64,000 bases of DNA from Alphaproteobacteria bacterium. GTDB taxonomy: Bacteria; Pseudomonadota; Alphaproteobacteria; UBA828. The notes beneath the pieces are model-generated. The model was not told the origin of the DNA. It was given only the letters and a program-made list of their open reading frames with translations, and ran no database searches. Made by a program: the position numbers and the translations under genes. The DNA is taken from contig OZ243972.1 of the NCBI GenBank assembly GCA_965214705.1, positions 3,968,001 to 4,032,000 on the forward strand, written 5' to 3'. Positions 20,150 to 57,031 of this stretch are shown piece after piece. Position 1 is the first letter of the stretch. Every line of letters starts with the position of its first letter.

Positions 20150-21495
20150 CGCTAACTTGTTTGCGGTTCTTCGATGAAGCGTTCCGCGATTTGGGTCAGG
20201 CGCCGCCGGGACGGTTCGGAGAGGGATTTGGAGATCTGGTTCCATTGGTCGATCACCTCGGCGAGGGACAAATGGGGTTCGATGGCTCGCACGCCCTGGT
20301 TGAGCATGAACCCGAAGTCACGCCAGGCGCTGTGCGGCCGGCAGCGCCTCCAGGCTGTATCCCCAGGGGGAAACCGTGCTGGCATGACGGATCAGCTTTT
20401 CCACCAGCAGCGCCACCAGGAGTTTGCCGTAGAGCCACGCCTTGGCGCTCTCGTCGTCGTATTTGGGCAGATGCCCCAACTGCGCCAGAGACTTGAAGCG
20501 CTTGAAGACCAGTTCGACCTGCCAGCGGGTGCGATCCCACTCCAGGACCTGCGCCGCGCTGAAGGCCGCTTCGGGAAAGGTCGTGAACACGATGACGTAG
20601 CGCGCGAACTCCAGGGTTCGCGGCCGAACCTGCTTGCCCTTGCGCCCGGCCTCCTTGCGCAGCTTGCGCTGCGCCAGCCTGATGGCTTCCTGCGTCTTTC
20701 TGATCGCGCACACGCGCCCCGGCACCGCGATGCCGTCGCCGACCGCCAGCACGGGCCAGGATCGCACGCTGCCGACCCGCTTCAGCGTCGTGACGTGTGC
20801 AAGCAGGTCGAACGGCGCGCCGTCGCGCGTTCGAAGCGACAGCGCCCCGGTGTTCACGCGCACGGTGACATGACCCCCCGCAGACACCACGTGGTGGAGG
20901 CCCGCAGCAGTCGAGTACGCCCGGTCGGCGAGCACAAAGTCGCCCTCGCCGACCGGGAACTGCGAGAACGCCTCGCCCGTGCCCCGTCCCTCGCTCGCCG
21001 TGAGCTTGAAGAAGTCGCACGCCAGCGACGGAAGGCGCACGCTGTAGTGCAGGCGCCACAGCGCCCCGGTCCGGCCCGGCTCCTTCACCGTCGTCGCGTC
21101 GAAGGCCCTGACCTGGAACCCGCCAGCGGCCGACATCGCCATCCCCTGTTCGCGAAACAGCGCGACGCACAACGCGTGAAGCCAATCCCCCGACTTCCTC
21201 AGCCGCTTCAACAAGGCCACGTCGGACAGATCGGCCAGGTTCGCCTTCCTCGCACGCACCACGGTCTCGCGCAGCGAGTGTCCGCAGGCCAGATGCAGCA
21301 ACAGCGTGCGCAGCAGGGCATCGACCGACTTGTCCTTGCGCAGACCCTTCAAGGCCCCGGTCTCCCGTGCCAACTCCCGCCAGCCCTCGGGCAGAAACAA
21401 CGACACCACTTCCCACTCCTCGTCCATCCGCCAAGCCTCCCCGCAGCGCGCACCAACCCACAATACGGAGTGCCGACATGACAAACAAGTTAGCG
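20150..21495 (-). mobile_element. IS4-family-like insertion sequence (transposase 21427-20318)
   Basis: IRs CGCTAACTTGTTTG / CAAACAAGTTAGCG; DDE motifs AFDATT, LADRAY, RWQVELVFKRFK; no matching target duplication. Confidence 0.85.
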
Positions 21496-21691
21496 CTTAT
21501 GGCGCAAGGCGGCGACCGGCGCTCGCAGCGGATCGAGGCGTGGGCCGAGGTGGTCCTCGCACTGGTGGACGAGACCCCGGACATGACGCTTTCGGAGATT
21601 GCCACCCATCTGGAGGACGAGCACGGGCTGCGGGTCTCCCAGAGCACCGTATGGCGCTTCTTCCACCGCCGGGGCATCACCATCAAAAACA

Positions 21692-23428
21692 GACATGGCC
21701 GGCGTGTAGCGATCCACCCCGGATGATGAAAGTCCGGTGCCTCGGTCGAGGGAATGAACGCTGCCCCTGCGTGGCATAGCGGCATTAGAGTCACGGTCGG
21801 TGGAGGCGGCACAATGGCCGTCGTTTTAGTGGTGAGCACTGCTTCCCGATCAAAAACTGGCCCCGGCCGGTCGGCTCCGAGCCCCGGATTGTTCCCGGCC
21901 GCCGAGCCGTGGACGCGCGGCAAACCGCACCGCACCCGAGGCGGGTGTGTGTTCAGTCCGACCGGCCCGTCCGCCTCCGCCTTCCCCAAGCGAGAGGTGA
22001 GATCATGAGAACCGACACACTGCACGTCGTCCATGCTCGTGCCGCCGGCATTGACGTGCACAAGATGCAGATCACCACATCGATCCGCATCTGTGCACCC
22101 GGCGGCGGCGAGCCGCAGATCGCGACGCGGACCTTCGAGGCTCTGCCCAGCGGCATCGACGAGATGGTGGCATGGATGCTCGCGCGCAAAGTCGATGCCG
22201 CAGTGATGGAGGGCACCGGCATCTACTGGGTGGCACCGTTCGAAGCGCTGGAGGCGGCCGGCATCTCCGTGGTGCTGGTCAACGCCCGGCAGGTCAAGCA
22301 GCTGAAGGGCCGCAAGACCGATGTGGCGGACAGCGTCTGGCTGGCGCGGGTCTGTCAGTTCGGTCTGGCAAGCCCCAGCCACGTGCCGCCCAAGGCGTTC
22401 CGGGAGATGCGCGCACTTACCCGCTACCGGCGCGCCCTCGTCGGTCAGCGCAGCCGGGTGCGCAATCGGGTGCAGAAGGTCCTGGACCGCAGCGGCGTGC
22501 GCGTCGGCGGTGTCCTCTCCGACGTCTTCGGCACGAACGGGAGACGGGTTCTCGACGGCTTGGCTGAGGGGCTCGGACCGGACGCCATCCTGGCCTCGCT
22601 CAGCCACCATGTGGCGCACAAGGTCGAGCGGCTCGGCGACGCCCTCAGCCTCTCCCTCAGCGCTGCGGACCGCCTGATCCTGTGCGATCTGCTTCGCGAG
22701 CACGATGCGCTGGAGGAGCGCATCCAGGGGTTCGACCGGGCCATCGACGATGGCTTCGTGCCCTGGGAGGACCGCATCCTGCTTCTCCAGACCATCCCCG
22801 GGATCGACCGGGCCTCGGCCTGCGCCATCCTCGCCGAGATCGGCCCCGACCTCGACGCCTTCGGCTCCACTGATCGGCTTGCCGCATGGGCCGGTCTCTG
22901 TCCCGGCAACAGCCAAAGCGCCGGAAAGCGCCGTGCCGCCCGCACACGCATGGGCAGCAAGACCCTGCGCGCCGTGCTCGTCGAATGCGCTCATGGCGCG
23001 GCGCGAACCCATGGCTGCCAGTTCCGCGGCTACCACAAGGCTCTCATGATCCGACGCGGTTACAAGCGGGCCATCGTCGCCACCGCGCACAAGATGCTGC
23101 GGGTCCTCTACGTCGTGTTGCGCGACGCCAAGCCTTACTACGATCCGGAAGCCGACTACGAAGCCCTCATGGTCAGGCGAAATGCCCCGCGCTGGATCCG
23201 CATGCTCCGCCGGCACGGCTTGCTCGAGCCCGGTCGTATCCCAACTGCCATGGCCGCGACCGCCTGAAGCATTACCTGGTCGGAGCACGGTCGGCACCGG
23301 GCCACAATCCAGGGCAGCCCGAAGTCCGACCGCGTCTCCAAGCACCGCGAGCGCGGCCTCACGCCGACAACGCGACGCCTCGTCGTAATTCCCCTACTCG
23401 TGCCCGTCCCGAAGAAACTTTCACGGCA
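21692..23428 (+). mobile_element. IS110-family element #1 (recombinase 22005-23267) with ~310-nt left non-coding end
   Basis: DEDD motifs GIDVHK, MEGTGIYW, KTDVADS; SQSAG serine; CA core at 21690-21691 and 23427-23428; no TIR or TSD. Confidence 0.93.
21800..21990 (+). ncRNA. Putative bridge RNA of IS110 #1 (approximate limits)
   Basis: CGTCGTTTT (21819-21827) + hairpin AGTG-GTGAG-CACT + ATCAAAAAC (21849-21857) match the two halves of the insertion site. Confidence 0.8.
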
Positions 23429-24076
23429 AAACGGCGCACGCCAGCGAGCAGCAACGCGCTGACGTGCTCAGGCGCAGGCGCGCCTGGGTCGAAGCCCAGC
23501 CCGGGCTCGACCCTGAGAAGCTGGTCTTCGTGGATGAGACCGGTGCTTCCACCAAAATGGCGCGGCGCTCAGGCCGAGCTTTGCGCGGACACCGCTGCCG
23601 CGCTCCGGTGCCTCATGGCCATTGGAAGACCACGACCTTCGTCGGCGCGCTGAGGCTGAGCGGAATGACCGCGCCCATGGTGCTCGACGGCGCCATGCAC
23701 GGCGCCGCCTTCCTCGCCTACGTAGACAAGGTGCTGGTGCCCATCCTCAAACCCGGCGACATCGTGGTGATGGACAACCTTCCCGCCCACCGAAGTGCCG
23801 CCGCCCGAGAGGCTATCCAAAGGGCCGGGGCCGAGCTCCGCTTCCTGCCGCCCTACAGCCCTGACTTCAACCCGATCGAGATGGCATTCTCCAAGCTCAA
23901 GGCCTACCTCAAGCGACGCGCCGCCCGCACCGTCCCGGAACTCTGGGACGCCATCGGCCAAGCCACAGACACCTTCACACCCGCCGAGTGCCAAAACTAC
24001 TTCGCTGCTACAGGATATGACCACGTATGATCGGATAGTGCTCTAAAAGGTGAGATATGCGCGTCGCTTAGCGCGC

Positions 24077-46230: not shown

Positions 46231-49200
46231 CGCTCCCGTCACGCAAACGACAGGAGGCGCGGAATGCGACGTGTCATCGGCATCGACATCCACCGGACCT
46301 TCGGGGAGGTGGTGATCTAGGAGAACGGGGCTTTGCAGCACGCCGGCCGGGTGGATATGACCCGCACGGGATTGGAGGGCTTCGGCAAGGGCCTGCGGGC
46401 GACGGACGAGGTGGTGATCGAAGCGACGGGGAACTGCATGGCAGTCTCGCGTGTGCTGTCGCCCTTCGTGAAGCGGGTGGTGATCGCCAATCCGTTGCAG
46501 GTGAAGGCGATCGCGCACGCCCATGTGAAGACCGACAAGGTCGACGCGGGGACGCTGGCGAGCTTGTACGCGGCGGGGTATCTGCCCGAGATCTGGACGC
46601 CGGATGCGGCTACCGAGCGGCTGCGCCGGTTGGTGGCGCGGCGCTACCAGGTGGTGCGCCACAGGACGCGGCTCAAGAACGAGGTGCATTCGATCCTTCA
46701 TGCGCATCTGATCCCGAAGTGCCCGCACGCGGACCTGTTCAACCGGCGGGGGCGGTCGTGGCTGTCGCGCCAGCCCTTTCCCGACGACGAGCGTGCCGCG
46801 ATCGAGCGGCACATCCGTGAGCTTGATCGCCTGGGCGAGGACCTCGACCTCCTCGACCGCGAGATCGCGGAGAGTGCGCTGGACGATGCGGCGATCAAGC
46901 GGCTGATGACGATCACCGGTGTCAATCTCACCGTCGCGGTGGGACTGATGGCGGCGATCGGCGACATCGCCCGCTTCTCTTGCCCGCAGAAGCTGGTGAG
47001 CTACTTCGGCCTCAACCCGCGTGTGCGCCAGTCCGGTCTCGGCGCTGCCCACCACGGGCGGATCAGCAAGATCGGCCGCAGCCATGCCCGGACGATGCTG
47101 GTCGAGGCCGCCTGGGCGGCGGCAAAGGCCCCGGGGCCATTGCACGCCTTCTTCGTCCGCATCCGCGCCCGCCGCGGCCACCAGGTCGCCGCCGTCGCCG
47201 TCGTGCGCAAGCTGGCCGTCCTCTGCTGGCACATGCTGACCAAGGAGGAGGACTACCTCTGGGCCCGCCCGGCACTGGTGGCCAACAAGCTGCGCGCCAT
47301 GGAGCTGCAGGCCGGCAGGCCGCAGCAAAAGGGGAACCGGCGCGGACCGGCCTACGCTTACAACATCAAGGCGCTGCGCGACCAGGAGATCGATCTCGCC
47401 CGGCAAGCCGAGCGTAGCTACGAACGCTTCGTTGGCAACTGGCGTCCGCGCAAGCCACGGGACGGGGCGCGCGGACGCCTCAAGCCGGCAAGGCCTGAGT
47501 GAGGCAGCCCGGCGGCGCTTTCAGCCGCAGCGCCGCTCTTCGCCACGAGGTCGCCCGCGCAACCGACATCCTGCCACGGCCTCGAAGAAAGCGCTTGTCC
47601 ATCTCATCCGTCGAGTGCAGCTTGGTTCGGTGCTCCCTGGGGAAAGTCATGTAGGCCAGCACGTCGTGCTCGGCCTCGTCCATGAGGGTGGCGAGCTTGG
47701 GCGCCTTGGGCCTGAGCTGGTCGGCGACCAGGCGCCACTGGGCGCTTGCGGCCTCGGCGTCGTCCTGGGCGAAGGCGGTGGCGACGAAGGCAGACACGAC
47801 ACGCCGGCCCTGTCTGCCGGCATGGGCGAGCAGATTGCGCATGAAGTGGATGCGGCATCTCTGCCAGGTGGCGCCGAGGATGCGCCTGGCGGCGGCCTTG
47901 AGCCCCTTGTGGTCGTCGGAGATCACCAGCTTGACGCCGCCGAGCCCGCGCCGGGTGAGCGAGCGCAGGAACTCGGTCCAGAAGGTCTCGGCCTCGGACG
48001 CGCCGATCGCCATGCCAAGGACCTCGCGCCGGCCCTGGTCGTTGACCGCCACCGCGACGGTGACCGCGACCGGGACGATGCGCCCGGCCTCGCGCACCTT
48101 CACGTAGGTGGCATCCAGCCAGAGATAGGGCCAGTCTCCCTCCAGCGGGCGGTCGAGGAAGCTCCTGATCTTGTCGTCGATCTCGCCGCACAGCCTGGAC
48201 ACCTGGCTCTTGGAGATGCCGCTCATGCCCATCGCCTGCATCAGGTCGTCGACCGAGCGGGTCGACACGCCCTGGATGTAGGCCTCCTGGATCACCGCGG
48301 TCAGCGCCTTCTCGGCCATCCGACGCGGCTCAAGGAAGCCCGGGAAGTAGCTCCCCTTCCTCAGCTTCGGGATCTTCAGCGCCACCGTGCCCGCGCGGGT
48401 CTCCCAGGCCCGCTCGCGGTAGCCGTTGCGGTGGGTGATCCGCTCCGGCGAACGCTCGCCATGCGCAGCCCCGGTCAGCCCTTCCACCTCCAGCGCCATC
48501 AGACGCTCGGCCGCGAAGCCGATCATCTCGCGCAGCAGATCGGCGTCGGAACTCTTCTCCAAAAGCCCGCGCAGGGCCATCATGTCCTCGGTCATCGTGG
48601 TTCTCCTCGGTATCGGGTTGGCGTTGCACGACCCAACCCTAATCCGGAACCGCGATGGCCTCCGCTGTGGATAAGCAGCCCGCCGCCGCCAGACTCGCGG
48701 CGGTCGCGGCGGCGGGCTGCTTACCCACAGCTACCAACCGAAGCCAGAGCTCCTACACCACGCTTGGGGACACGACCATCGGAGACCGCACGGCGCAGCC
48801 GCTCGTTCTCCTTCTCGAGCTCCTTCAGACGACGAAGCTGATCGCCGCTCATCCCGGCGTACTCCTTGCGCCACCTGTAGAACGTGACTTCGCTGATCCC
48901 GAGCTGCCGGATCGCGTCCGCCATCGACGCTCCCTGACCGTGCAGAACCTCAGCCCGCCGCAGCAGGCTCACGATCTCCTCGGGCTTGTAACGCTTCCTT
49001 GCCATCGTCGGCCCTCCTCTTTCCATAACCTAAGGGTGGACCAATTCGATGGGAGAGGATCATCAGGGTGGGAGATGTCCGGTCGTCTGGCGCCCCGGCT
49101 TCCGCCATTCCATCGTCGTGCCTCGCAGCCACCTCAAGCGCGGGCGGGCCGTCGTGCCCGTCGCTTGCCTTCACTGACGGCTCAGGAGCGAGATACCCGC

Positions 49201-55381: not shown

Positions 55382-57031
55382 CTTATGAGCTCTCTCCGCA
55401 AGGCCCGGCTTCATCTACGTCAATGGCATTCGCAATCTCTCCACTCGAATCCGCGGCCGATGTCCAGGCAGAACGTCGTTTCCACGCAGCGATCCGCCAC
55501 GCTGCTCAGCTCTTATCCGGTTCGGAACTCCGGCGCTTGCCGGCTCCGTGACCCCAATACCGCATCCAAGCGGTGGTGACGTTCCGGGAGGCGGGACCCA
55601 TCTGTAGAACGGTGCCAAGCGGCGACCCAACTCTTGCCCGGTCACACGCCTTGCCCGGCATCCTCCGCGGCCGCGTCCGACCACGTCGGAACCTCCTGTA
55701 TTTTCCCGTTCGTTCGGCCGGTGCCCTCAGGAGACGATGGCGCCCTCAGGCACCAGTCCTTGGGTGGCATAGCGCCACAGCGCGATCAGCAGCTTGCGCG
55801 CGACCCCCACGATCGCCCGCTTCCTCGCTCGCCGGTCCCTCCCGCCACCGGCATCCCTGGCGACGTAGGCGTGGAACCACTTCGTGATCGCGCTTTCCGG
55901 TTGCAGCTTCAGCCAGCGCCAAGCCATCTGGATCATGTGCTTCCTGACATGCGAGGGGCCGGCCTTGCTGATGCCAAGATCGTGGTCGACATCTCCGCTC
56001 GCCCACGGCACCGACGTCAACCCGGCCCAGCTGCCCAACTCCCGGCGATTGCGGAAGTCCCGATAGAACACCTCGCCAGCCAGCAGTGTGGCGTCATTGA
56101 GGCCGATGCCATGGATGCGCGTAAGCGCCGCGATCATCGCCGTCCCGTCACGATTGGTCGCGTCCTGGGCTTTCCGGCCAGCCTTCAGCAGGGCCCTCTT
56201 CTCGGCCTCGATCATCTCGATATGCTCCTCAACCAGGCGAAGCATCCCCACCGCCCTCTCAATCTCTGCCCGCGCACGCGGCGGCAACGGCGCCCCATAG
56301 CCCGTCCGCGCGGTCGCGAGGCGTTCGAGGAAGTCCGGCTTGCGCGGCGCCAGATCGAAGATGCCGTGCAACTGCAAGAGCCCTTTGATCCGGTTGTTGA
56401 CGCGGGTACGCTCGCTGATCAGCGTGTCCCTCTCGCGCAGCAGGCGCTTGGCATCCTCCTGGTCCACATCGGGCACGCGCACCCAGGACATGGCCTCCGA
56501 ATCGCCTTGGTCCCATGCCTTCAGAGCCCGAACCATCCTCCTCGCGTCGATACGGTCGGTCTTTTTCTTCTTGGCGCGCCGGTTCACCCGCAGGCTCGCC
56601 GGATCGTTCATGAAGATATCGATCTCCGCGTCACGGCGCTCGATATCGCGGGCAAGCCAGAACCCCTCGTAGCCCGCCTCGTAGGTCAGCATCACCCGAG
56701 GACGGGCGCCGAGCTCCCTCGCCACCCGTTCCCGCACCGACCCGACGAGATCCAACAGTCCCGCCGTGTCGGCAGCAGCCAGTGTGTGGATGCTGATGCT
56801 GCCACCCGAGGCATCCGGGCAATGCACGCCAACGATCCACGATTTGAGGCTGATCTCCACCGCGACATAAATCGTGCTACTACTTGCGCCTGTCAGCGCG
56901 GTCGTGTCTGGACCATCCGACATCCGTCCACTCCGTTGTTGACGATTCCGCTCGGAGAGAAGGTGCTGGCCTTCTCTCCGAGCTTGTCTAACCGCCAGAA
57001 TCGATTCGGTGCCACCGTGCTCATGGTATCT
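55382..57031 (-). mobile_element. IS110-family element #3 (IS1111-like layout, long downstream non-coding end); recombinase 56923-55727
   Basis: YVAVEIS, TYEAGYEGFWL, KTDRIDA, WASG, GVARKL; empty site visible in IS91 copy 1 at 5311-5330. Confidence 0.9.
55490..55660 (-). ncRNA. Putative seek/bridge RNA of IS110 #3 (approximate limits)
   Basis: Target-matching 55638-55628 and 55612-55603; donor-matching 55561-55556 and 55516-55510; each pair separated by a hairpin. Confidence 0.7.

What the first reader, a model, noticed from the sequence alone, without database searches (positions are those of the whole stretch)
21682..23436. IS110 #1 carries an 18-nt description of its own insertion site in its non-coding end
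Seen: the empty site is ATCAAAAAC|AAAACGGCG, which restores the IS630 frame. The left end contains CGTCGTTTT (21819-21827; complement of the right half with one G-U wobble), a 4-bp hairpin, then ATCAAAAAC (21849-21857; identical to the left half). Such AT-rich matches in GC-rich DNA are unlikely by chance. Known: IS110 recombinases use a bridge RNA with a target-binding loop. Inference: a natural guide with an apparent 9+9 nt specificity, longer than the IS621 model, aimed at an IS630 transposase gene. The donor loop was not confidently located (weak candidates TCACGG at 21791 and CGCGGCA near 21915).
Basis: partly seen in the sequence, partly recalled or inferred. Interest (0 to 1): 0.85.

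Follow-up and report, generated by a model that had tools for sequence, protein, structure and literature searches.

The report
IS110 bridge RNA aimed at IS630
An IS110-type jumping gene carries, in its non-coding left end, a folded guide RNA whose two short arms spell out the spot in another jumping gene (IS630) where it inserts; this is a natural example of the known bridge-RNA mechanism, not a new one.

Summary
Window 21691-23427 is an IS110-family element with a 420-aa DEDD recombinase. It sits in the poly-A tract of an IS630 transposase gene.

Both 9-mers lie on the two sides of one internal loop of a roughly 180-nt structured RNA (21799-21981, + strand). I compared 15 related IS types with 24 distinct insertion sites:
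- The 3' arm changes together with the left flank (0 of 5000 label permutations reach the observed match).
- The 5' arm changes together with the right flank, more weakly (4, 84 or 553 of 5000, depending on the score).
- A donor guide (21916-21925) covaries with the right end of the element.

- **Empty site:** it has no C. The C of the left 9-mer comes from the element and looks like a handshake base.
- **Target length:** the arms overlap on a probable AA core, so the target is about 13-15 bp. That is within the IS621 range, and guides of 17 bp are already in print.
- **Arm order:** the arm that pairs with the top strand lies 5' of the arm that pairs with the bottom strand. This is the IS1111/seekRNA order, the reverse of IS621 and ISEc21.

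Verdict: a new member of a known kind, of modest interest.

The parts
21478..21689 (+). 5' part of the interrupted IS630 transposase gene. Its HTH region is itself cut at about 21500 by an IS4/IS5-like element. The last 8 bases (21682-21689) are the left half of the target.
   Evidence: Pfam HTH_32, HTH_Tnp_Tc3_2 and HTH_33. BLAST of the two halves in the genome. Uninterrupted relatives.
21690..23427 (+). IS110-family insertion sequence, about 1.74 kb. Its exact ends are uncertain by 1-3 bases inside the A-runs. C21690 belongs to the element, not to the target.
   Evidence: Three full copies at 100% identity plus one truncated copy in the genome. Flanks. Empty sites without the C.
21727..21733 (+). 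Left-end copy of a 7-bp inverted repeat, whose partner lies at 23417-23423 near the right end. It resembles a subterminal inverted repeat.
   Evidence: Reverse-complement match. The two positions tested covary in 10 of 11 and 11 of 11 IS types.
21799..21981 (+). Bridge-RNA-like structured RNA. Closing helix H1 pairs 21799-21809 with 21971-21981.
   Evidence: MFE -96 kcal/mol, z -3.34, 0 of 200 shuffles as stable. 13 of 37 consensus pairs show compensatory changes, and many G-U pairs fit the + strand only. H1 measures 6-15 bp in 16 distinct relatives.
21816..21820 (+). 5' strand of helix H2, which closes the target-binding loop. It pairs with 21858-21862.
   Evidence: A 5-bp helix is kept in 15 of 16 distinct RNAs, with four different sequence pairs. 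Fold.
21821..21829 (+). 5' side of the target loop.
   Evidence: Complement of 23428-23436 with one U-G. Cognate versus non-cognate flanks: 4, 84 or 553 of 5000 permutations reach the observed value, depending on the score.
21830..21848 (+). Apical hairpin H3 between the two guide arms.
   Evidence: Consensus pairs at alignment columns 37-42 / 51-55. Fold.
21849..21857 (+). 3' side of the target loop. This guide is identical to the top strand of the left half-site, so it pairs with the BOTTOM strand. Its last base or two (the C, possibly AC) match the first bases of the element and look like a handshake guide.
   Evidence: Exact 9-mer repeat. Alignment columns 200-202 are identical to the flank in 12, 12 and 11 of 14 types. 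0 of 5000 permutations reach the observed value.
21865..21874 (+). 5' strand of helix H4, which closes the donor-binding multiloop. It pairs with 21958-21967.
   Evidence: The helix measures 5-10 bp in 16 of 16 distinct RNAs, with different sequences. Fold z -2.37.
21916..21925 (+). Donor guide. It is identical to the last 4 bases of the right end plus the A's that follow in the right junction.
   Evidence: Alignment column 286 is identical to the variable base of the right end in 11 of 11 types. The guide follows the right end in the types where that end differs.
22005..23267 (+). Recombinase gene, 420 aa. The acidic residues and the Ser305 motif are invariant among 10 relatives.
   Evidence: Pfam PF01548 and PF02371. 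NCBIfam NF033542 'IS110 family RNA-guided transposase', 268 bits against a cut-off of 140. Alignment A1.
23268..23427 (+). Non-coding right end. It contains the inverted-repeat partner at 23417-23423 and the terminal bases read by the donor guide.
23428..24030 (+). 3' part of the interrupted IS630 transposase gene (DDE domain). The first bases are the right half of the target.
   Evidence: Pfam DDE_3. NCBIfam NF033545. Relatives.

Best explanation
The element is an IS110-family insertion sequence that finds its target with a bridge RNA encoded on the + strand of its own left end (about 21799-21981).

The RNA has a closing helix and two modules.
- **Target module.** This is an internal loop closed by helix H2 (21816-20 / 21858-62).
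[quoted passage not shown] - The next base or two (C21857, perhaps A21856) match the first bases of the element. They would pair only after strand exchange, like the handshake guide of IS621.
- **Donor module.** This is a multiloop closed by helix H4. Bases 21916-25 in it read the right end of the element plus the core.

Both target arms cover a shared core, most likely AA. The recognised site is therefore about 13-15 bp: (A/T)TC, a run of about seven A, then CGG(CG). That run is the A-tract between the HTH and DDE parts of an IS630 transposase gene.

**Shown here:** the sequence matches, the covariation of both target arms and of one donor arm with the flanks and end, the conserved fold, and repeated insertion at the same site.

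**Inferred:** that the RNA is made and bound by the recombinase, the core length, and the handshake role.
For: - **Left 9-mer.** It is repeated exactly, and chance expects 0.10 occurrences.
- **Repeated insertion.** Three diverged IS630 copies each hold a copy of the element at the same site (two full-length at 100% identity, one truncated). A fourth copy lies in an unrelated site with the same left 9-mer and 8 of 10 matching right positions.
- **Left arm, 15 IS types and 24 distinct sites.**
  - The 5 variable positions are identical to the own flank at 3.5 of 5 on average, against 1.38 for 334 non-cognate pairs.
  - 0 of 5000 permutations reach the observed value.
  - 21 of 24 sites show an identity run of 7 or more.
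- **Right arm, 22 sites.** The Watson-Crick run averages 5.0 against 3.95 for non-cognate pairs, and 4 of 5000 permutations reach it.
- **Donor guide.** It covaries with the right end in 11 of 11 types.
- **Fold.** z is -3.34, and 0 of 200 shuffles are as stable. 13 of 37 consensus pairs show compensatory changes. Helices H1, H2 and H4 are kept with different sequences in 16 distinct RNAs.
- **Protein.** NF033542 'IS110 family RNA-guided transposase', 268 bits.
- **A multi-copy relative.** It has 18 copies in another species. All 15 outer left junctions end in the letters its guide predicts.
- **Known mechanism.** Passages of PMC11208160, passages of PMC11208158 and named sections of PMC11187229.
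Against: - There is no direct evidence that the RNA exists in this organism. The only RNA-library signal is a contig of a relative's donor module in a coral metatranscriptome. Contigs cannot show level, and DNA carry-over is possible.
- No promoter-like site was found in the integrated left end.
- No Rfam family matches: 7 weak hits, none near its threshold.
- The right arm is weak by one of three scores (553 of 5000 permutations). In the 18-copy relative its distal part matches none of 15 right flanks.
- The guide for the first bases of the left end was not found.
- The A counts at the junctions do not give one consistent core length.
- The right flanks were picked by a short motif. At least one (L128) is doubtful.
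Confidence: 0.85

Rival explanations
1. The empty site is the 18-mer with a C in the middle. The two 9-mers abut without overlap and give an 18-nt specificity that exceeds IS621.
For: Both 9-mers match the junctions as read in the filled site. The 18-mer keeps the IS630 frame.
Against: - No empty site shows the C: 0 of 10 IS630 relatives, 0 of 2 metagenome contigs, and 0 of 2 empty copies of the third site.
- The same AAAC precedes the element in 23 of 24 sites of 15 IS types, whatever the target (the remaining site reads AAGC). It also precedes it in 15 of 15 outer junctions of the 18-copy relative.
- Two of the nine right-arm bases are in helix H2.
Confidence: 0.07
2. Only the left arm (21849-57) guides. 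The right-arm match is mostly a by-product of the A/T run plus chance, and the right half-site contributes little beyond a few A's.
For: - One-mismatch matches to the right 9-mer are as common as chance predicts.
- With G-U allowed, cognate and non-cognate right flanks hardly differ (5.59 against 5.22; 553 of 5000 permutations).
- In the 18-copy relative the right flank consensus is only A-A-A-(T/G).
Against: - The Watson-Crick run and the GC-weighted score separate cognate from non-cognate flanks (4 and 84 of 5000).
- Three types show specific right matches of 5-6 letters at two or three independent sites each.
- The unrelated fourth site matches the arm again at its four distal positions.
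Confidence: 0.12
3. The repeats are chance or low-complexity matches and the left end has no guide function.
For: The folding of the whole 314-nt left end is not exceptional (z -1.39, 15 of 100 shuffles fold as well). There is no Rfam match.
Against: Covariation with the flanks across 15 types (0 of 5000 permutations). Site-specific repeated insertion. A conserved fold with compensatory changes.
Confidence: 0.02

Closest known systems
IS621 bridge RNA (IS110 group; Durrant et al. 2024, PMC11208160; Hiraizumi et al. 2024, PMC11208158)
   Same: - The recombinase has DEDD plus Tnp domains.
- The guide RNA is encoded in the left end, upstream of the gene.
- The RNA has two modules, one for the target and one for the element's own joined ends.
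- Each target arm reads a different DNA strand, and both cover a short core.
- One or two extra letters 3' of the arm on the 3' side match the donor (handshake).
- The RNA has a similar size: 177 nt against about 180 nt.
   Different: - The arm order is reversed. [quoted passage not shown] - The core is probably AA, not CT.
- The donor letters sit in a multiloop, not a simple internal loop.
- The recombinase is about 95 aa longer. The plasmid collection holds no relative above 40.4% identity; no comparison with IS621 itself was run.
IS1111-type seekRNA (ISEc11, ISPa11, ISKpn4; Siddiquee et al. 2024, PMC11187229)
   Same: - The top-strand match lies 5' of the bottom-strand match.
- An inverted repeat is set in from the ends.
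- Durrant et al. describe donor-binding letters in a multiloop for many IS1111 members.
   Different: - In IS1111 elements the non-coding region and RNA lie downstream of the gene. Here they lie upstream.
- IS1111 transposases are 330-350 aa. This one is 420 aa.
- The left copy of the inverted repeat lies 37 bases inside the left end.
ISEc21 (IS110 type) targeting IS3-family transposase genes (PMC11187229, section read)
   Same: It is an IS110-family element with an upstream guide RNA, and its natural target is a conserved stretch inside the transposase gene of another IS family.
   Different: [quoted passage not shown]
- The arm order is bottom-then-top.
- The transposase is 358 aa.
Bridge RNA variants with long guides (bioRxiv 10.64898/2026.10.21.760802, section 2.4 read)
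   Same: These are natural bridge RNAs found by covariation with reconstructed target and donor sites. Up to 17 bp of target pairing is reported.
   Different: I could not see which of their 86 models, if any, covers this clade. Figures and supplements are not available here.

Membership tests
IS110-family bridge-RNA system (IS621 type) | Recombinase with a DEDD RuvC-like domain plus a Tnp domain with a catalytic Ser | tested here: met
   PF01548 (1.7e-24) and PF02371 (1.2e-19). NF033542, 268 bits against a cut-off of 140. D17, E69, D106, D109 and S305 are invariant in 10 relatives. Which of these residues are catalytic is recalled by analogy, except the Ser.
IS110-family bridge-RNA system (IS621 type) | Structured non-coding RNA encoded in the long non-coding end | tested here: met
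   Fold z -3.34. 13 of 37 pairs show compensatory changes. Helices are kept in 16 distinct RNAs. Expression was not shown.
IS110-family bridge-RNA system (IS621 type) | Two arms of one loop pair with opposite strands of the left and right target halves and covary with them | tested here: met
   Left arm: 0 of 5000 permutations. Right arm: 4, 84 or 553 of 5000, by score.
IS110-family bridge-RNA system (IS621 type) | A second loop pairs with both halves of the joined element ends (donor) | tested here: inconclusive
   A guide for the right end was found and covaries in 11 of 11 types. No guide for the first bases of the left end was found.
IS110-family bridge-RNA system (IS621 type) | A short core shared by target and donor and covered by both arms | tested here: inconclusive
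   Both arms cover the A-run. AA fits a 7-A empty site, but the A counts differ by one between sites. No circle junction is available.
IS110-family bridge-RNA system (IS621 type) | Arm order: the bottom-strand (left) guide on the 5' side, the top-strand (right) guide on the 3' side | tested here: not met
   Here the top-strand (right) arm at 21821-27 lies 5' of the bottom-strand (left) arm at 21849-57, in all 15 types.
IS110-family bridge-RNA system (IS621 type) | RNA made from a promoter rebuilt at the joined ends and bound by the recombinase | not testable with these tools
   No promoter-like site in the integrated left end. The joined ends were not scanned. Only a weak RNA-library hint exists for a relative.
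IS1111-type seekRNA system | Long non-coding region and RNA downstream of the transposase gene | tested here: not met
   The left end is 314 nt and holds the RNA. The right end is 160 nt.
IS1111-type seekRNA system | Top-strand match 5' of bottom-strand match | tested here: met
IS1111-type seekRNA system | Subterminal inverted repeats of 7-17 bp | tested here: inconclusive
   A 7-bp (up to 10-bp in one type) inverted repeat at 21727-33 / 23417-23 covaries at the two positions tested in 10 of 11 and 11 of 11 types. Its left copy lies 37 bases inside the end.
IS1111-type seekRNA system | Transposase of 330-350 aa of the IS1111 clade | tested here: not met
   The protein is 420 aa. No tree against named IS1111 members was made.

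The most novel reading that the evidence does not exclude
This clade may be a hybrid architecture not yet described: large IS110-type recombinases (about 405-420 aa), found so far mostly in metagenome-assembled genomes, several from marine-invertebrate samples. The bridge RNA is encoded upstream, as in IS621 and ISEc21. Its arms, however, are in the IS1111 order, the donor letters sit in a multiloop, and a covarying inverted repeat lies inside the ends. If so, the strand that is cut and exchanged first is the opposite one relative to the recombinase gene. RNA position (left or right end) and guide polarity would then have evolved independently.
Probability: 0.3. Interest if true: 0.5.

Novelty: new member of a known kind. 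Interest (0 to 1): 0.3.

Why it matters
The element is a clean natural case in which guide, target, several independent insertions and empty sites can all be read from genomes. It shows one IS family policing, or parasitising, the recoding A-tract of another. It also supplies a compact set of 15 related guide/target pairs for anyone who wants to test arm order, core choice and handshake letters outside the IS621 model. It does not open a new mechanism.

Tried and rejected
- **Rfam.** All families were searched over 21400-23700 at E up to 10. There were 7 weak hits, none near its gathering score.
- **Whole left end.** Its folding is not exceptional.
- **Close relatives in the class.** 401 genomes of the same class were searched at E <= 1e-90. 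Only the own genome matched.
- **Metagenome scan.** It returned 80 loci, mostly 34-41% identical. The RNA profile found only 1 of them (L041). They could not be used for covariation.
- **Arm order in those distant loci.** I paired flank matches without alignment. The result was 17 against 16, pure noise.
- **Guide for the first bases of the left end.** The column-wise scan and the 5-mer scan found nothing consistent.
- **TCACGG at 21791 as a donor guide.** Rejected, because it is not conserved among relatives.
- **Empty sites for two insertions of the 18-copy relative.**
  - One flank is the end of another repeat and gave no empty site.
  - The other gave only homologues about 79% alike. They lack the C but do not fix the A count.
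- **Promoter scan of the integrated left end.** 0 sites.
- **Plasmid collection.** The best relatives are at most 40.4% identical and are annotated only as 'IS110 family transposase'.
- **Sequencing runs.**
  - All four runs laid were contigs, so no RNA ends, strand or level can be read.
  - The RNA-library contigs belong to relatives, not to this element.
  - Parts without cover mean nothing.
- **Closed or unseen material.** Supplements and figures of the papers were not available. Extended Data of PMC11208160 and the 86 models of the 2026 preprint may already show this clade and its arm order.
Full report
**What is there.** Window 21691-23427 holds a 1.74-kb element with one gene (22005-23267, 420 aa).
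- The protein matches DEDD_Tnp_IS110 and Transposase_20 and the NCBIfam model 'IS110 family RNA-guided transposase' (268 bits, cut-off 140).
- The DNA on either side is one IS630 transposase gene split in two. The HTH domains end at 21690, and DDE_3 / NF033545 starts at 23428.
- The IS630 gene is itself cut near 21500 by an IS4/IS5-like element.

**The observation.**
- ATCAAAAAC stands at 21682-21690 and 21849-21857 and nowhere else in the window. Chance expects 0.10, and 0 of 100 shuffles gave two.
- CGTCGTTTT at 21819-21827 is the reverse complement of 23428-23436 with one U-G position. One-mismatch matches to that 9-mer are as frequent as chance (16 against 15.3).
- The right match therefore counts only through its position and through comparison with relatives.

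**Copies in the genome.** The genome holds three full copies at 100% identity, one truncated copy, and two copies of a 72% relative that I call ISB.
- The window copy, a second full copy and the truncated copy sit at the same place in three IS630 copies. Those IS630 copies are only 95-98% identical to each other. These look like separate insertions, not one duplicated block.
- The third full copy (L003) sits in unrelated DNA. Its left 9-mer is the same, and its right flank agrees with the guide at 8 of 10 positions, including the four distal ones.
- A relative with an internal deletion lies at the same IS630 site in another species of the genus.

**The empty site.**
- No uninterrupted IS630 copy exists in this genome.
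- In 10 of 10 uninterrupted relatives from other genomes, the site is a three-base codon followed by an A-tract and then CGG. The codon is TTC in 9 loci and CGC in one. The tract has 7 positions in 4 loci and 8 in 6. No locus has a C in it.
- Two metagenome contigs read the same with 8 A.
- The empty paralogue and orthologue of the L003 site also lack the C.
- The letters AAAC precede the element in 23 of 24 sites of all 15 related IS types, whatever the target (one site reads AAGC). They also precede it in 15 of 15 outer junctions of an 18-copy relative.
- So the C, and perhaps one A before it, belongs to the element. A 7-A site restores the frame equally well.
- The A counts do not add up identically for the two kinds of site: 5+4 against 5+5. 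Two copies of another type differ in the same way. I therefore leave the core as 'probably AA', with the register uncertain by one.

**Relatives and covariation.**
- A scan of species genomes gave 18 loci at 49-82% protein identity. Searching five of those genomes gave further copies.
- Aligning the left ends shows a conserved RNA-like region in which two short stretches vary.
- After extraction by program there were 15 types and 24 distinct sites.
- **3' arm (left flank):**
  - It is identical to its own left flank at 3.5 of the 5 variable positions on average. The figure is 1.38 for 334 non-cognate pairs.
  - No label permutation out of 5000 reaches the observed value.
  - 21 of 24 sites have an identity run of 7 or more.
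  - The exceptions are a frameshifted copy (run of 4), one of three sites of another type (5) and one site with a mismatch next to the end (1).
- **5' arm (right flank, 22 sites):**
  - Its mean Watson-Crick run is 5.0 against 3.95 (4 of 5000 permutations).
  - A GC-weighted score gives 84 of 5000.
  - A run score that allows G-U gives 553 of 5000.
- The right arm is thus supported, but less firmly.
- In the 18-copy ISB-like element of another species, the right flank consensus is only A-A-A-(T/G).
- Caveats: the right flanks were located by a short end motif, and one (L128) is doubtful. Related copies are not independent.

**The RNA.**
- Bases 21799-21981 fold at -96 kcal/mol, with z -3.34 and 0 of 200 shuffles as stable.
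- In the 13-sequence alignment, 13 of 37 consensus pairs have compensatory changes. Several pairs are G-U in some members, which fits the + strand only.
- Three further helices keep complementarity with different letters in 16 distinct RNAs:
  - the closing helix H1;
  - H2, which closes the target loop (21816-20 / 21858-62);
  - H4, which closes the donor part (21865-74 / 21958-67).
- The target loop has about 9 bases on the 5' side, then the apical hairpin, then 9 bases on the 3' side.

**Donor side.**
- Bases 21916-25 repeat the last four bases of the right end plus the following A's.
- The variable base of the right end is mirrored in this stretch in 11 of 11 types. Types with a different right end carry the matching letters.
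The other candidate (TCACGG at 21791) is not conserved.
- I found no stretch that tracks the first bases of the left end.
- A 7-bp inverted repeat at 21727-33 / 23417-23 covaries at the two positions tested, in 10 of 11 and 11 of 11 types. Its role is open.

**Comparison with what is known.**
[quoted passage not shown] It is followed by two handshake bases that pair with the donor after exchange. Both arms cover the CT core (passages of PMC11208160 and PMC11208158).
- *This element.* The same logic holds with the polarity turned round. [quoted passage not shown] - *Arm order in print.* Siddiquee et al. report exactly this order, top-strand match 5' of bottom-strand match, for IS1111-type seekRNAs. 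Those lie downstream of the gene. They report the opposite order for the upstream RNA of ISEc21 (sections read).
- *Donor multiloop.* Durrant et al. note that many IS1111 RNAs hold donor letters in a multiloop.
- *Recombinase size.* At 420 aa the recombinase falls in the size class that Siddiquee et al. give for the subgroup around IS110 itself, 395-455 aa.
- *Target length.* Counting only target positions, this element reads about 6 + 2 + 5 to 7 = 13-15 bp. IS621 reads 11-14. A 2026 preprint reports natural variants with 17 bp of target pairing (section 2.4).
- *One IS targeting another.* ISEc21 targets IS3 transposase genes, so this too has a precedent.
- *Literature search.* My searches found no paper that describes this arm order for an upstream-encoded RNA. 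Figures and supplements were not visible, so I do not claim it is unpublished.

**Expression.** All runs that could be laid were contigs.
- One coral metatranscriptome contig (394 nt) matches the donor part of an ISB-like relative.
- A second contig matches the target loop of another relative, with different guide letters.
- This is a weak hint only, because DNA may be present in such libraries.

**Verdict.**
- The finding is a correct recognition of a natural bridge RNA and its target. Its sequence claims are confirmed apart from the reconstructed empty site.
- The length claim is overstated.
- The arm order and the handshake-like C were missed.
- It is a new member of a known kind. The reversed arm order in an upstream RNA is the only point that might interest a specialist.

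Noticed in passing
window 46276-46704 (+) and 56369-56626 (-): Two further IS110-family recombinase genes lie in the window. The first has one in-frame TAG. The second belongs to a family of about 20 copies. The genome has 54 matches to PF01548 in all.
   Followed up: no
genome contig C1 about 2150277-2152012 and 9 other copies: A multi-copy IS110-family element shows no visible flank consensus in its 10 full-length copies. Even so, its left end repeats both of its own termini in the same sense.
   Followed up: partly
window 20318-21484 (-): An IS4/IS5-like DDE_Tnp_1 transposase gene has an end that truncates the IS630 gene near 21500. About 100 bases at that end recur at 7 other places in the genome.
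   Followed up: no
loci L027-L036, at the position matching window 21682-23436: Uninterrupted IS630 relatives have a tract of 7 positions (in frame, 4 of 10) or 8 positions (out of frame, 6 of 10) between the HTH and DDE parts. This may be a recoding or slippage tract, and it is exactly what the IS110 element targets.
   Followed up: partly
loci L157/L159, L163/L165 and L174/L175 (genome G012): Three head-to-tail tandem pairs of the ISB-like element, 1769 bases apart, are joined by 3 or 4 A plus C. They could be insertions next to an existing right junction, or images of the circle junction.
   Followed up: partly
window 21679-21681 and L003: The two unrelated targets of the element share three more bases (ACC) upstream of the 9-mer. 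The guide does not cover them.
   Followed up: no
window about 21712-21723 and 21880-21890: A C-rich stretch about 22-33 bases inside the left end recurs in the same sense in the 5' strand of the donor multiloop in most types. I saw this by eye in the alignment.
   Followed up: no
locus L156 (genome G002): An internally deleted relative sits at the same IS630 site in another species. It keeps the second half of the RNA region joined to the last 19 or so bases of the right end.
   Followed up: yes
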